A stretch of 64,000 bases of DNA, from contig OZ024747.1 in the NCBI GenBank assembly GCA_964016885.1, forward strand, positions 78,244,001 to 78,308,000. Reading direction: 5' to 3'. Source of the DNA: Eledone cirrhosa (taxonomy: Eukaryota). Shown here one piece after another: positions 4,774 through 43,854 of the stretch. Position 1 is the first letter of the stretch. Every line of letters starts with the position of its first letter. The notes under the pieces were generated by a model that saw only the letters and a program-made list of their open reading frames with translations, had not been told where the DNA came from and did not search any database. Made by a program: the position numbers and the translations under genes.

Positions 4774-4833
4774 CTTTTCTTGGATTCCATGAAAATGTCA
4801 TATTCTTGAGCCATTTTACAACATAATGCTTGA
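4774..4833 (-). CDS. fng: Fringe glycosyltransferase internal exon (60 bp): (R)QALCCKMAQEYDIFMESKK(R)
   Basis: Acceptor ttttattttcAG and donor GTtaga on the minus strand; phase 2/2 joins in frame to the 11870-11912 exon; peptide matches the Fringe motif [21 protein letters not shown]. Confidence 0.93.
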
Positions 4834-5549
4834 CTGAAAATAAAAAAAGGAAAAATTAAAATTAAAACTAAACATACATCAGAACTTTGTTAACCGTTTC
4901 CTCATTGTGTTTCTAATTAGATACTCTATATTTCAATTAATTAATGAAGAATTTTGAGGGATTTGCTAACATATATTTATTATTACATTACCAAGTTACT
5001 AACATATCCTTAAAGGGTTAATAGTAAAAAAATAAGTGGTTTTAATTGTGGGTATCTTCTCTCAGTGTAAGATTTATCTTGCATCTCATCATCATCATCA
5101 TCATCTTCGTTTAACGTCTATCTTCCACGCTAGCATGGGTAGACGGCTTGCATCTACTTATTAATAGAGATAAGTTCTGCTCCATGGGAAAGGATGCTCG
5201 CAATTTAAAACACTTATTCCCTTCTTCAACCTAACAGATGACAATGCAACCTCACTAGTGTTGGTGCCATGATAAAATACTTCCAGTGTATTCTGTAAAA
5301 TAGTTGATGTTTAAATAGAGACAACATAAGATAGATAAGAATCTTTAGTCTGACCAAGGAAAAAAAATGATAAAAAGCATTTGGTCCACTTTAAGTGAAT
5401 GGTATCAGTAAGGGTATCTAGCTGTAGAACCTATACCCAAAATGGAATGTTCAAATGAGATATGTAGGAGGGTAGTGACTCTGAATAAAAATTGAATCAA
5501 ACTGTAACAACCTGCCTGTGTCACCCATGAAAACTGGACATAAATAACG

Positions 5550-5695
5550 GTTTCTGATTTAGGCACAAAGCCAGCAATTTTTGGGAGAAGGGAAAGTCGA
5601 TTAAATTGATACCAGTGTGTGTGTGTGACTGGTACTTTATTTTATCGACCCCATAAGGATGAAAGGCAAAGCTAACCTTGGTGGGATTTGAACTC
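5550..5695 (-). mobile_element. SINE fragment, family with core GAGTTCAAATCCC...TTTGCCTTTCATCC...GATAAAATAAAGTACCAG
   Basis: Same block recurs at about 12675-12795, 38690-38865, 47081-47240, 59090-59225 and 61600-61680; B-box-like GAGTTCAAATCC. Confidence 0.75.
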
Positions 5696-5768
5696 ATAAA
5701 TAACTAATCTTATCACTGAATTATAGCTAATCTTATTATTGAATTTATAATTATAGTTAACCTTGTGA

Positions 5769-5879
5769 ATTATTGAAGCTCTGGGAAATTTGAATGTGTG
5801 ACAATTTCAAATACAGAAAATAACTTATTTACTGGGTTTGGAATTCTCACATTTTCAAATTTCCCAGCACTTCAATAAT
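5769..5879. repeat. Imperfect palindrome or MITE-like hairpin, about 110 bp
   Basis: ATTATTGAAGCTCTGGGAAATTTGAA... pairs with ...TTCAAATTTCCCAGCACTTCAATAAT. Confidence 0.75.
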
Positions 5880-39763: not shown

Positions 39764-40414
39764 TTTTTTGATACATGATTTTATTTTGATACTCTGCTCC
39801 AGTATGTCAAGATGAGCATTGAGTGCCACCTTGACATATCAGTAGCAGCAGCCAGATGGAAGGTGACAAGGTGGTGGAATGGTATGGAAAATAGAGCTGA
39901 AAGTAGCAGCTAAATCTCCCTCAATAAACTCCCTAAACCTTCATTGTTCACATGACAGTCCTTATTCACATATGCTCTCCATAATGTGTGAAGGAGCGTG
40001 GTCCATTGTTTAGGTTACGGAACTGAACTCATTATTATAAGATCAGGGGTTCAATTCCTGGACCAGGTGGTATGTTTTTGAACAATGCAATTAATTACAT
40101 TGTTGCTAAATTTACAAAAGAAAAAAAAATGAAGTGGCCATGGCTGGAACCCCTTTGAATCAGAGGTTAATTGAATCAGGGTTAGTCTGGGGCTAAACAA
40201 CAACCAGGAAATTGAAACATGACAGAAAATACATATATTTACAAAAATATACAGAAGATCTCTAAATTATGATATATATATATATATATATGAATATAGA
40301 CATAGAATATTCGAAAATATTCTGTATGTTTATAATAAACATTTTGAAGACCTAATCGCTATAGAATAGAATACGTCACGTATTACAATTAGATTCTCGA
40401 TAAAAGCAAGGGAA

Positions 40415-40457
40415 GTAATCTACGCGTTTCATTCTTGTTAGAAATCATCAGGACTAC
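40415..40457 (-). ncRNA. Minimal type I hammerhead ribozyme, first of 5 minus-strand copies (others start at 40725, 41035, 41345, 41655)
   Basis: GTAGTC-CTGATGA-TTTC TAACAA GAAT-GAAA-CGCG-TA-GATTAC; palindromic ACGCGT helix III; GUA site; distal 16-bp helix ATTCTCGATAAAAGCA/TGCTTTTATCGAGAAT. Confidence 0.92.
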
Positions 40458-42382
40458 ATATCCAGTGCTTTTATCGAGAATGACACAGCTAGAGACTTAT
40501 AGAATACTTAGCTGTGTACAGGAACTGGTTTGAAAGAGCGGTTGCCGGTCCGGCAGAAATTAGAAATTGGAATAAATGCTCTGAAATAGCGATATATATG
40601 TGAATATAGACATAGAATATTCGAAAATATTCTGTATGTTTATAATAAACATTTTGAAGACCTAATCGCTATAGAATAGAATACGTCACGTATTACAATT
40701 AGATTCTCGATAAAAGCAAGGGAAGTAATCTACGCGTTTCATTCTTGTTAGAAATCATCAGGACTACATATCCAGTGCTTTTATCGAGAATGACACAGCT
40801 AGAGACTTATAGAATACTTAGCTGTGTACAGGAACTGGTTTGAAAGAGCGGTTGCCGGTCCGGCAGAAATTAGAAATTGGAATAAATGCTCTGAAATAGC
40901 GATATATATGTGAATATAGACATAGAATATTCGAAAATATTCTGTATGTTTATAATAAACATTTTGAAGACCTAATCGCTATAGAATAGAATACGTCACG
41001 TATTACAATTAGATTCTCGATAAAAGCAAGGGAAGTAATCTACGCGTTTCATTCTTGTTAGAAATCATCAGGACTACATATCCAGTGCTTTTATCGAGAA
41101 TGACACAGCTAGAGACTTATAGAATACTTAGCTGTGTACAGGAACTGGTTTGAAAGAGCGGTTGCCGGTCCGGCAGAAATTAGAAATTGGAATAAATGCT
41201 CTGAAATAGCGATATATATGTGAATATAGACATAGAATATTCGAAAATATTCTGTATGTTTATAATAAACATTTTGAAGACCTAATCGCTATAGAATAGA
41301 ATACGTCACGTATTACAATTAGATTCTCGATAAAAGCAAGGGAAGTAATCTACGCGTTTCATTCTTGTTAGAAATCATCAGGACTACATATCCAGTGCTT
41401 TTATCGAGAATGACACAGCTAGAGACTTATAGAATACTTAGCTGTGTACAGGAACTGGTTTGAAAGAGCGGTTGCCGGTCCGGCAGAAATTAGAAATTGG
41501 AATAAATGCTCTGAAATAGCGATATATATGTGAATATAGACATAGAATATTCGAAAATATTCTGTATGTTTATAATAAACATTTTGAAGACCTAATCGCT
41601 ATAGAATAGAATACGTCACGTATTACAATTAGATTCTCGATAAAAGCAAGGGAAGTAATCTACGCGTTTCATTCTTGTTAGAAATCATCAGGACTACATA
41701 TCCAGTGCTTTTATCGAGAATGACACAGCTAGAGACTTATAGAATACTTAGCTGTGTACAGGAACTGGTTTGAAAGAGCGGTTGCCGGTCCGGCAGAAAT
41801 TAGAAATTGGAATAAATGCTCTGAAATAGCGATATATATGTGAATATAGACATAGAATATTCGAATAGGTCTTCAAAATGTTTATTATAAACATACAGAA
41901 TATTTTCGAATATTCTATGTCTATATTCACATATATATCGCTATTTCAGAGCATTTATTCCAATTTCTAATTTCTGCCGGACCGGCAACCGCTCTTTCAA
42001 ACCAGTTCCTGTACACAGCTAAGTATTCTATAAGTCTCTAGCTGTGTCATTCTCGATAAAAGCACTGGATATGTAGCCCTGATGATTTCTAACAAGAATG
42101 AAACGCGTAGATTACTTCCCTTGCTTTTATCGAGAATCTAATTGTAATACGTGACGTATTCTATTCTATAGCGATTAGGTCTTCAAAATGTTTATTATAA
42201 ACATACAGAATATTTTCGAATATTCTATGTCTATATTCACATATATATCGCTATTTCAGAGCATTTATTCCAATTTCTAATTTCTGCCGGACCGGCAACC
42301 GCTCTTTCAAACCAGTTCCTGTACACAGCTAAGTATTCTATAAGTCTCTAGCTGTGTCATTCTCGATAAAAGCACTGGATAT

Positions 42383-42425
42383 GTAGTCCTGATGATTTCT
42401 AACAAGAATGAAACGCGTAGATTAC
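42383..42425 (+). ncRNA. Minimal type I hammerhead ribozyme, one of 6 plus-strand copies (starts 42073, 42383, 42693, 43003, 43313, 43623)
   Basis: Same motif as 40415-40457; the 42073 copy has a T>C change in stem I at 42077. Confidence 0.92.
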
Positions 42426-43854
42426 TTCCCTTGCTTTTATCGAGAATCTAATTGTAATACGTGACGTATTCTATTCTATAGCGATTAGGTCTTCAAAATG
42501 TTTATTATAAACATACAGAATATTTTCGAATATTCTATGTCTATATTCACATATATATCGCTATTTCAGAGCATTTATTCCAATTTCTAATTTCTGCCGG
42601 ACCGGCAACCGCTCTTTCAAACCAGTTCCTGTACACAGCTAAGTATTCTATAAGTCTCTAGCTGTGTCATTCTCGATAAAAGCACTGGATATGTAGTCCT
42701 GATGATTTCTAACAAGAATGAAACGCGTAGATTACTTCCCTTGCTTTTATCGAGAATCTAATTGTAATACGTGACGTATTCTATTCTATAGCGATTAGGT
42801 CTTCAAAATGTTTATTATAAACATACAGAATATTTTCGAATATTCTATGTCTATATTCACATATATATCGCTATTTCAGAGCATTTATTCCAATTTCTAA
42901 TTTCTGCCGGACCGGCAACCGCTCTTTCAAACCAGTTCCTGTACACAGCTAAGTATTCTATAAGTCTCTAGCTGTGTCATTCTCGATAAAAGCACTGGAT
43001 ATGTAGTCCTGATGATTTCTAACAAGAATGAAACGCGTAGATTACTTCCCTTGCTTTTATCGAGAATCTAATTGTAATACGTGACGTATTCTATTCTATA
43101 GCGATTAGGTCTTCAAAATGTTTATTATAAACATACAGAATATTTTCGAATATTCTATGTCTATATTCACATATATATCGCTATTTCAGAGCATTTATTC
43201 CAATTTCTAATTTCTGCCGGACCGGCAACCGCTCTTTCAAACCAGTTCCTGTACACAGCTAAGTATTCTATAAGTCTCTAGCTGTTTCATTCTCGATAAA
43301 AGCACTGGATATGTAGTCCTGATGATTTCTAACAAGAATGAAACGCGTAGATTACTTCCCTTGCTTTTATCGAGAATCTAATTGTAATACGTGACGTATT
43401 CTATTCTATAGCGATTAGGTCTTCAAAATGTTTATTATAAACATACAGAATATTTTCGAATATTCTATGTCTATATTCACATATATATCGCTATTTCAGA
43501 GCATTTATTCCAATTTCTAATTTCTGCCGGACCGGCAACCGCTCTTTCAAACCAGTTCCTGTACACAGCTAAGTATTCTATAAGTCTCTAGCTGTGTCAT
43601 TCTCGATAAAAGCACTGGATATGTAGTCCTGATGATTTCTAACAAGAATGAAACGCGTAGATTACTTCCCTTGCTTTTATCGAGAATCTAATTGTAATAC
43701 GTGACGTATTCTATTCTATAGCGATTAGGTCTTCAAAATGTTTATTATAAACATACAGAATATTTTCGAATATTCTATGTCTATATTCACATATATATCG
43801 CTATTTCAGAGCATTTATTCCAATTTCTATATATATATATATATATATATATAT

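What the first reader, a model, noticed from the sequence alone, without database searches (positions are those of the whole stretch)
4774..43829. Self-cleaving ribozymes and a 1.6-kb dsRNA stem lie on the sense strand of fringe introns
Seen: fringe is on the minus strand. Minus-strand HHRs at 16037-16081 and 21384-21438 lie in the intron between the 24621 and 11870 exons. Five more (40415-41697) lie upstream of the 24621 exon, where no first exon was found. Inference: the pre-mRNA could be cut co-transcriptionally, could act as host for retrozyme monomers, or could fold the inverted arms into long duplexes that mask the ribozymes and serve as ADAR or Dicer substrates. Extensive A-to-I editing is established in coleoid cephalopods.
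Basis: inference. Interest (0 to 1): 0.7.

Follow-up and report, generated by a model that had tools for sequence, protein, structure and literature searches.

The report
Passenger ribozyme arrays in fringe introns
The self-cutting RNA motifs and the 1.6-kb hairpin in this developmental gene's introns are real, but they are young copies of jumping elements that litter this genome, and their back-to-back build likely pairs most of them off before they can cut, so they are probably passengers and not regulators of the gene.

Summary
The motifs, coordinates and strand are confirmed. Exon 1 of fringe lies 14-15 kb right of the window, so the array sits in a 53-kb intron 1. But the sense-strand location carries no information. 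The array is one of at least 1,246 insertions of a 310-nt hammerhead retrozyme. Of 93 sampled insertions, 80 are fully resolved head-to-head double arrays in (TA)n with a Penelope-type 35-nt tail on one arm only; none is convergent. Such inserts carry ribozymes on both strands (fringe: 10 sense, 8 antisense). Evenly spaced sample DNA holds one hammerhead per 9.5 kb; fringe has 7 loci against about 9 expected. Because of the geometry, a read-through transcript from either side makes the antisense arm first, so the sense ribozymes are predicted to be zipped into duplex. Variants fixed across both arms point to rolling-circle copying of one RNA monomer from both cut DNA strands. An A-to-G excess among those variants hints at ADAR edits written back into DNA. 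No RNA data were available: cleavage, editing and expression are untested. This scan already reported this family, its mechanism and ADAR fossils on other DNA of the genome.

The parts
24621..24669 (-). fringe exon 2 (49 nt)
   Evidence: AG/GT ends, in frame with exons 1-6, 420 codons without stop
11870..11912 (-). fringe exon 3 (43 nt)
4774..4833 (-). fringe exon 4 (60 nt)
24670..64000 (-). window part of fringe intron 1 (53,313 nt; exon 1 at window coordinates 78858-77983, outside the window)
40291..41865 (-). left arm of the 310-nt retrozyme insertion: 5.08 units, 3' end outward at monomer phase 130 (no tail); sense to fringe, transcribed second
41866..43829 (+). right arm: 6.34 units, 3' end outward at phase 170 (with tail); antisense to fringe, transcribed first
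41866..41904 (.). 39-nt spacer (hairpin loop) at the head-to-head junction of the two 5'-truncated ends (phases 106 and 67)
43790..43829 (+). 40-nt 'tail' (phases 131-170) present at the outer end of this arm only
   Evidence: same asymmetry in 80 of 80 resolved two-armed loci
40272..40290 (.). left (TA)n target flank
43828..43854 (.). right (TA)n target flank
40415..41697 (-). five type I hammerheads (40415-40457, 40725-40767, 41035-41077, 41345-41387, 41655-41697): 6-bp stem I with a 14-bp extension, U.U at the base of stem II, 2-bp stem III with palindromic loop
42073..43665 (+). six hammerheads on the other strand, the first with a stem-I mismatch
15811..16582 (.). insertion of a second retrozyme family (466-nt unit), same head-to-head build: 0.60 unit on - (15811-16088, end phase 233), 1.06 units on + (16087-16582, end phase 302); 278-bp perfect inverted arms
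16037..16081 (-). sense hammerhead of the 466-nt element; its exact complement (16243-16287, +) is transcribed about 200 nt earlier
21332..21644 (-). 5'-truncated stub of a Hydra-type Penelope-like element: 238-nt arm with the hammerhead (21569-21332) plus an inverted 84-nt tail arm (21644-21561)
   Evidence: 97-99% match to 3' ends of RT + GIY-YIG elements L149-L151; 4,392 exact cores in the genome
21384..21438 (-). lone PLE-type hammerhead, not covered by an antisense arm; 5-bp stem I, C.C mismatch in stem II
16701..16867 (-).
   Evidence: 98-99% match to both ends of the RT + EN element in L058
22762..23235 (+). unit of a third retrozyme family (about 466 nt), hammerhead core 23057-23087, antisense to fringe

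Best explanation
The intronic ribozymes are young insertions of very abundant hammerhead-bearing retroelements, likely passengers that are predicted to be paired off in the fringe pre-mRNA before they can cut. Shown: the 3.5-kb block is a head-to-head pair of tandem arrays of a 310-nt unit in (TA)n, one of at least 1,246 such insertions, with fixed outer ends about 35 nt apart and scattered inner ends. Inferred: a Penelope-like RT/GIY-YIG enzyme nicked both strands of a TA tract and started cDNA at two neighbouring internal sites of one monomeric RNA circle, went round several times from each side, and the two cDNAs were joined head to head. A by-product of that geometry is that any transcript entering from outside, in either direction, reads the antisense arm first. 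In fringe, 6.3 antisense units precede 5.1 sense units, so a 1.6-kb duplex would zip up from the 39-nt loop and bury all five sense hammerheads; the same holds for the 16-kb element. The lone motifs at 16.8 and 21.4 kb are unmasked but are dimer-type PLE ribozymes without a same-family partner, so they would be slow. The likely net effect on fringe mRNA is small; the likely RNA-level event is ADAR editing of an intron that is then discarded.
For: Copy number: 4,587 exact 31-nt cores, control 0; 1,246 tail-to-TA junctions. Architecture: 80 of 93 tail-selected insertions fully resolved, all head-to-head with one tail end (165-167) and one non-tail end (115-142); 0 convergent, 0 tail/tail; 7 cut by the fetch edge, 6 single-armed or split. 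9 of 9 two-armed loci picked by the ribozyme core, not the tail, show the same. The 466-nt family repeats it, and so do RT+EN PLE copies. Matches PLE signatures in print: inverted 5'-truncated copy, 30-40-bp tail, TA bias (PMC8557442, passages); both strands cut and extended, two internal RT starts = tail (PMC11167929, main text). Monomer template: in 103 loci / 960 units, 142 singletons, 15 partly shared variants, 70 of 90 two-armed loci with a variant fixed in both arms, 14 of them private; 14/90 = 0.16 per locus matches 0.15 singletons per unit. Inner ends do not pile up at the cleavage site, 4 of 158 within 11 nt, 5.6 expected. No fringe link: 21 motifs at 16 loci in 199.8 kb of evenly spaced DNA vs 18 motifs at 7 loci, 10 sense and 8 antisense, in the gene. 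Masking. U.U-based, 2-bp-stem-III hammerheads are weak as monomers (22% in 1 h) and efficient as dimers (PMC7229834, part 3); slow intronic ribozymes did not affect splicing (Fong 2009 as cited in PMC10919898).
Against: No RNA evidence of any kind. Masking is an equilibrium prediction: the antisense arm folds on itself (-82 kcal/mol per unit) and stable upstream structures can resist exchange (PMC2817708, abstract); proteins or editing could open the duplex, and the sense HHRs lie 16-17 kb before the exon 2 acceptor, several minutes of transcription. No autonomous PLE with a pLTR like the 310-nt unit was found. Four loci do not fit one monomer template: L238 and L085 show mirror-image mosaics in both arms, L077 and L247 have arm-asymmetric variants. 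By motif count fringe is above background (18 vs 11-12), all of it due to the array. The chance that a 107-kb gene holds one of 1,246 such insertions is only about 4%, so this family alone is not in every gene. 93 of the 103 loci were selected by the tail end and all but the window are from contig C1.
Confidence: 0.78

Rival explanations
1. The sense hammerheads do cut the nascent fringe intron often enough to lower spliced mRNA, as an unselected side effect (adjacent units form dimeric ribozymes before the duplex zips, or after editing opens it).
For: Cores are intact, no locus-fixed variant hits the 11 core positions (0 of 36); five tandem copies allow dimer folding; 16-17 kb to the next acceptor; fast intronic ribozymes block splicing (Fong 2009 as cited in PMC10919898); retrozymes are somewhat depleted from Xenopus introns (bioRxiv 2026.07.22.740005).
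Against: Exact complement is made first and abuts the emerging strand; duplex favoured by about 400 kcal/mol per unit; the insertion is tolerated in a developmental gene; no reads ended at the HHR site of the anole PLE (PMC11167929).
Confidence: 0.12
2. Fringe intron 1 is a source of 310-nt monomers and circles that seed new insertions.
For: The array has the commonest haplotype class (24 of 103 loci carry no fixed difference from it); the unit folds well as a circle (z = -5.0); no box A/B or octamer was seen in the 310-nt unit, so read-through may be how it is transcribed.
Against: Same masking argument; over a thousand other loci, some with arms of 15-24 units and large unpaired overhangs, are better sources; in fringe the longer arm is the antisense one, so no sense unit is left unpaired.
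Confidence: 0.08
3. The arrays grew in place by unequal crossing-over from short PLE-end insertions (the route proposed in bioRxiv 2026.07.22.740005), with no circular template.
For: Initial inverted insertion is a known PLE product; a few variants are shared by some units (15 partial); gene conversion between arms could homogenise.
Against: Stepwise growth predicts blocks of neighbouring units sharing variants within one arm; at most 3 such cases (L053, L077, L247) against 142 singletons and 14 private variants fixed in both arms.
Confidence: 0.07
4. The ribozymes or the stem have been co-opted to regulate fringe, like the CPEB3 intronic ribozyme.
For: Inside a dosage-sensitive Notch regulator (own knowledge); precedent for tuned intronic ribozymes (PMC10919898).
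Against: Indistinguishable from more than a thousand copies; 2 differences in 11.4 units; no enrichment or strand bias.
Confidence: 0.03
5. The inverted array is an assembly or fold-back read artefact.
For: Near-perfect palindromes are a known long-read artefact; short-read contigs did not bridge the junction by 31 nt on each side (inconclusive).
Against: Flanks differ on the two sides, ends sit at two fixed phases in 80 loci, and some loci have non-TA direct repeats (34 nt in L048, 15 nt in L050).
Confidence: 0.01

Closest known systems
Metazoan non-LTR retrozymes (Cervera and de la Pena 2020, PMC7229834; review PMC7761336; Li et al. 2026, bioRxiv 10.64898/2026.07.22.740005)
   Same: Non-coding, low-GC tandem units of about 300 nt, each with a type I hammerhead; thousands of copies; U.U at the base of stem II and a 2-bp stem III as in axolotl HHR_Amex2; 42-44% of Xenopus copies overlap introns, so an intronic copy is ordinary.
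   Different: Here nearly every sampled insertion is a head-to-head double array with a one-sided tail; the word 'inverted' does not occur in the main text of PMC7229834. Circular RNA is not shown here. The variant pattern favours rolling-circle copying over the local-amplification route proposed by Li et al.
Endonuclease-bearing Penelope-like elements (Craig 2021 PMC8557442; Frangieh 2024 PMC11167929; Arkhipova 2013 PMC3846280; Cervera 2014 PMC4209133)
   Same: Head-to-head inverted 5'-truncated copy, 30-40-bp tail on one end, TA-tract targets, hammerhead near the 3' end. The 16.8- and 21.4-kb motifs are plain 3' stubs of Hydra-type PLEs (C-terminal GIY-YIG, CxCX5C linker, DKT motif seen).
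   Different: The 310- and 466-nt units encode nothing, repeat up to 24 times per arm, and no autonomous element sharing their sequence was found.
Functional intronic ribozymes: CPEB3 HDV-like ribozyme (PMC10919898); amniote intronic hammerheads (title only, in that paper's reference list)
   Same: Self-cleaving motif on the sense strand of a long intron, kilobases before the next exon.
   Different: Those are single-copy and conserved; these are multi-copy, very young, present on both strands and flanked by their own complement.
Inverted-repeat ADAR substrates in introns and UTRs (coleoid repeat-directed editing, PMC9068888; inverted Alu pairs from own knowledge)
   Same: Long intramolecular duplex from an inverted repeat in a pre-mRNA.
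   Different: One insertion event supplies both arms at 99.9% identity: 55 of 80 resolved loci have a shorter arm of 500 bp or more, 22 of 1 kb or more.

Membership tests
Metazoan non-LTR retrozyme | Short (about 170-400 nt) tandem units of low GC | tested here: met
   310-nt period, 99% unit identity, GC about 0.34
Metazoan non-LTR retrozyme | Type I hammerhead in every unit | tested here: met
   10 of 11 pass the descriptor, 1 has a stem-I mismatch; 0 of 36 locus-fixed variants in the core. Rfam gathering threshold: 0 hits
Metazoan non-LTR retrozyme | No protein-coding capacity | tested here: met
   No ORF of 250 aa or more over the array; PBS and PPT were not searched
Metazoan non-LTR retrozyme | Dispersed, many copies | tested here: met
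   4,587 exact cores, 1,246 tail junctions
Metazoan non-LTR retrozyme | Target-site duplication | tested here: inconclusive
   Window flanks are pure TA; direct repeats with non-TA letters at 25 of 91 loci, most of them trivial, clear in L048 and L050
Metazoan non-LTR retrozyme | Self-cleavage and accumulation as circular RNA | not testable with these tools
   No RNA holder listed; circle inferred from DNA variants only
Penelope-like element (autonomous) | RT plus GIY-YIG ORF | tested here: not met
   Absent from the array and the 16-kb element; present in full relatives of the 16.8- and 21.4-kb stubs
Penelope-like element (integration signature) | Head-to-head inverted 5'-truncated copy | tested here: met
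   80 of 80 resolved two-armed loci; 9 of 9
Penelope-like element (integration signature) | 30-40-bp tail on one end only | tested here: met
   Ends at 115-142 vs 165-170; about 70 nt in the 466-nt family
Penelope-like element (integration signature) | Sequence shared with the pLTR of an autonomous partner | tested here: inconclusive
   Only two sister non-coding families at 70-80% identity were found; no ORF upstream in 30 + 30 loci; the search was not exhaustive
Regulatory intronic ribozyme (CPEB3 type) | Single locus-specific copy with strand bias | tested here: not met
   Thousands of copies; 10 sense and 8 antisense in the gene
Regulatory intronic ribozyme (CPEB3 type) | Conserved at the orthologous site across species | not testable with these tools
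   No relatives held; 2 differences in 11.4 units indicate a young insertion
Regulatory intronic ribozyme (CPEB3 type) | Cleavage in the nascent transcript changes mRNA output | not testable with these tools
   No RNA data; folding predicts masking

The most novel reading that the evidence does not exclude
Two-ended PLE priming gives these retrozymes a built-in safety catch: every insertion reads antisense-first from either side, so host introns are spared cleavage but receive perfect kilobase duplexes at over a thousand loci. ADAR edits this RNA family, and edited circles are copied back into the germ line: A-to-G on the ribozyme strand makes up 17 of 32 rare locus-fixed events against 12 of 120 post-insertion substitutions, falls on paired adenosines at 9 of 9 sites, recurs on several haplotypes, and repeats in a second family (10 of 24 against 9 of 84). 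Ribozyme retroelements would then be both a major source of the cephalopod repeat editome and a route from RNA edits to heritable change.
Probability: 0.33. Interest if true: 0.72.

Novelty: new variant of a known kind. Interest (0 to 1): 0.42.

Why it matters
For fringe itself it probably matters little: this is transposon debris in a long intron, and the genome holds an estimated 195,000-480,000 hammerhead motifs (from a 200-kb sample). For retroelement biology it matters more. How animal retrozymes move is open in print: a PLE partner and a circular template are proposed, not shown. The head-to-head build, one-sided tail and variants fixed in both arms are a DNA footprint of that route and give a ready in-vitro test. 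The antisense-first rule offers a reason why so many intact ribozymes are tolerated in genes, and predicts a heavy load of perfect duplexes in an animal group known for repeat-directed editing.

Tried and rejected
Rfam at gathering threshold: 0 hits. DNA search of the genome with the monomer returned nothing, not even itself, because common words are skipped; patterns were used instead. RNA: no RNA holder listed; this is no evidence either way. Contigs of X14, X17-X19 laid on one unit plus the right flank showed no empty site; X17-X19 each hold a 340-nt contig identical to the unit, which tandem DNA and a circle would both give, kind of run unknown, so not used. Contigs of X14-X16 did not bridge the junction by 31 nt per side, inconclusive. 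No second haplotype of the left flank in the assembly. Autonomous partner of the 310-nt unit: not found among fetched loci or two sister families. Linear cleaved monomer as template: rejected, arms pass the cleavage site many times and inner ends are not enriched there. Simple fold-back of one cDNA with fixed roles: disfavoured, the tail arm is the longer one in only 48 of 80 loci. Linear multimer as usual template: disfavoured, mirror-shared variants in 2 loci against 14 private variants fixed throughout. Promoter motifs: no box A/B or octamer in the 310-nt unit; an octamer in both 466-nt families, not followed up. A-to-G excess: selection for kept pairs (A-U to G.U) is not excluded; paired-site bias is significant only in the 310-nt family (p 0.009; 466-nt family p 0.20), A>G:T>C on distinct sites is not significant (11:6 vs 12:18, p 0.14), and 12 haplotype-defining variants were set aside before the 17-of-32 count. 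Lunse 2017 (PMC5785218) is not held. Intron-versus-intergenic bias could not be tested without annotation.

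
Full report
1. Observation. Shuffled DNA gives none. Rfam gives none at its gathering scores. The array is two runs of a 310-nt unit, 40291-41865 on minus and 41866-43829 on plus, with 2 mismatches in 1,575 paired nt and a 39-nt loop.

2. The gene. The window is G000:C7:78244001-78308000. Pfam Fringe positions 2-39 lie 14 kb to its right and 88-171 lie 21-23 kb to its left, all on minus. Exon 1 is at window coordinates 78858-77983. Exons 1-6 have AG/GT ends and give 420 codons with no stop; further exon-like pieces lie at about -27,490, -28,400, -31,140 and -32,040, so the gene spans about 111 kb. 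The exon-5 peptide matches Manic fringe best (E 1.2e-9), beta-1,3-glucosyltransferase second (8e-8). The array is in intron 1, the 16- and 21-kb motifs in intron 2.

3. What the array is. The 31-nt ribozyme core occurs 2,345 + 2,242 times, control 0; one end-to-TA junction occurs 623 + 623 times. I fetched the clusters behind the first 100 core matches and 93 of the first 100 tail matches, the other 7 being among the former; all are on contig C1. Among core-selected loci and the window, 9 of 9 two-armed insertions are head-to-head, with one arm ending at phase 126-139 and the other at 165-170. Among the 93 tail-selected ones, 80 are fully resolved and all have that build; 7 run off the fetched stretch (5 of them visibly two-armed); 5 look single-armed and 1 was split; none is convergent or tail/tail; three short matches to a sister family were set aside. 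Inner ends are spread over the unit, 4 of 158 within 11 nt of the cleavage site. This is the PLE signature: inverted 5'-truncated copy, 30-40-bp tail on one end, TA targets (PMC8557442 and PMC3846280, passages). A purified PLE protein cuts and extends both strands and starts at two internal sites that bound the tail (PMC11167929, main text read).

4. Template. In 103 loci and 960 units there are 142 single-unit changes, 15 partly shared ones and 36 distinct variants fixed in every unit of a locus; 70 of 90 two-armed loci carry at least one variant fixed in both arms, and 14 such variants are private. One mutated unit copied throughout predicts about 0.15 private fixed variants per locus (the singleton load per unit); 0.16 is seen. 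In-place expansion predicts blocks in one arm (at most 3 seen); a linear multimer predicts mirror-shared variants (2 loci seen). So a monomeric circle read repeatedly from both sides fits best. This is inference: no circle was observed. Exceptions are L238 (both arms read A, A, then B haplotypes), L085, L077 and L247. None of the 36 fixed variants touches the 11 core bases, against 5 of 142 singletons, which is too few to be significant alone. Cervera 2020 (passages, parts 3-4 of 6) proposed circle-templated tandem cDNA and a PLE partner; Li 2026 (parts 1-3 of 5) supports PLE origin and proposes local amplification. Searches for inverted retrozyme arrays or cephalopod hammerheads listed no paper describing this build; the library lacks most subscription papers.

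5. The other motifs. The 15.8-16.6-kb element belongs to a 466-nt family (1,633 exact cores) with the same build, ends at about 213-233 and 298-302 in the window and 16 of the 19 other stretches examined; L103, L105 and L154 are partial or compound. The 21.4-kb motif (4,392 exact cores) is the 3' end of a PLE with RT and C-terminal GIY-YIG, here a 238-nt arm plus an inverted 84-nt tail. The 16.8-kb motif is the 3' end of another such PLE. CxCX5C and DKT motifs place both near the Hydra clade of PMC8557442; no tree was built.

6. Is fringe special? Twenty evenly spaced 10-kb stretches from five contigs hold 21 motifs at 16 loci, about one motif per 9.5 kb. The gene holds 18 motifs at 7 loci, 10 sense and 8 antisense; about 9 loci and 11-12 motifs are expected. 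Two-armed inserts put ribozymes on both strands, so 'on the sense strand' is automatic. An insertion of this one family in a gene this long has about a 4% chance: uncommon per gene, common per genome. The array differs from itself at 2 places in 11.4 units, so it is young.

7. What happens in the pre-mRNA (predicted). Polymerase enters from the right, copies 6.3 antisense units, then 5.1 sense units starting at the loop. Duplex is -554 kcal/mol per unit against -72 and -82 for separate folding; in the MFE of the central 1,400 nt and of the 16-kb element every ribozyme base is in the long stem. The ribozyme has a U.U at the base of stem II and a 2-bp stem III with a palindromic loop, like axolotl HHR_Amex2, weak alone and efficient as a dimer (PMC7229834); a dimer needs two units free at once. 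Kinetic escape is possible (PMC2817708, abstract only). The lone 21.4- and 16.8-kb motifs are unmasked but have different loop palindromes and no same-family neighbour on that strand; PLE ribozymes are reported as weak in vitro (PMC4209133, part 1 of 4) or protein-dependent (PMC11167929). Slow intronic ribozymes left splicing intact in reporter work (Fong 2009, seen only as cited in PMC10919898). Repeat-directed editing is widespread in coleoids (PMC9068888, passages), so editing of the stem is likely if the intron is transcribed in such an animal; Dicer processing of nuclear intronic duplex has no support here.

8. Editing trace in the family. After setting aside 12 haplotype-defining variants, A-to-G on the ribozyme strand is 17 of 32 independent locus-fixed events against 12 of 120 singleton substitutions (p 5e-7), A>G:T>C 17:4 against 12:18 (p 0.005), with four sites recurring on 2-4 backgrounds; the 466-nt family gives 10 of 24 against 9 of 84 (p 0.001). 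All 9 sites are paired in the circle fold (56 of 92 A are paired, p 0.009); 8 of 10 in the second family (p 0.20). ADAR editing of the RNA before reverse transcription explains this; selection for kept G.U pairs and recombination between haplotypes are not excluded. It concerns the family's RNA, not the fringe copy. One literature search for such write-back listed nothing (one search listed viral and LINE-1 cases only, listing seen).

9. Earlier notes of this scan. At least eight reports on other loci of this genome reach the same family-level reading and eight report ADAR fossils in retroelements. I read them after searches had given the architecture and the first A-to-G count; they are not independent support.

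10. Verdict. Observation confirmed; interpretation partly supported. Works like a non-LTR retrozyme and meets every sequence-testable feature; carries a PLE integration signature but is not an autonomous PLE; fails the tests for a regulatory intronic ribozyme. The fringe link is most likely incidental. Interest 0.42, carried by the family-level mechanism and the antisense-first rule.

Noticed in passing
20 evenly spaced 10-kb stretches, L109-L128: 21 hammerhead motifs in 199.8 kb, from many families; extrapolates to about 315,000 (195,000-480,000) in the genome, more than the 126,247 reported for axolotl with another descriptor.
   Followed up: partly
L169-L198 (e.g. L050:8100-9000): Older sister family of about 320 nt (1,647 exact matches) shares phases 59-235 at 70-79% and carries a hammerhead with a changed core, read by eye as U3 with A8, the covariation reported for Schistosoma PLEs; a third sister (152 matches) has the usual core.
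   Followed up: partly
L238: Both arms carry haplotype A in the two outermost units and haplotype B further in: a coupled template switch by two RTs, a mixed multimer template, or arm-to-arm conversion.
   Followed up: partly
window 16087-16582 and 22860-23260: Both 466-nt families keep an octamer motif upstream of the ribozyme, suggesting an snRNA-type promoter as recalled for newt satellite 2; absent from the 310-nt unit.
   Followed up: no
L088:5939-7999 (-), L058, L149-L151, L056: Several PLE families with RT and GIY-YIG regions, one with a 687-aa stop-free frame; candidates for the enzyme source.
   Followed up: partly
window 14200-14560, 43990-44240, 24255-24330: Further short fold-back or palindromic repeats in TA tracts, each with relatives elsewhere; the 44.1-kb one has a degenerate hammerhead-like core by eye.
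   Followed up: no
window coordinates -48,620 to -46,820 (L015): Four-unit tandem array of the third retrozyme family about 15 kb downstream of the last fringe exon found, same strand as fringe.
   Followed up: no
exon 1, window coordinates 78858-77983 (L010): Fringe exon 1 encodes an unusually long stem of about 250 aa with a serine/proline run from a trinucleotide repeat.
   Followed up: no
window 3-3559, 17219-24268, 50447-52645, 54410-58040: Long minisatellite and TA-rich tracts; the 7-kb TA tract hosts two of the insertions.
   Followed up: no
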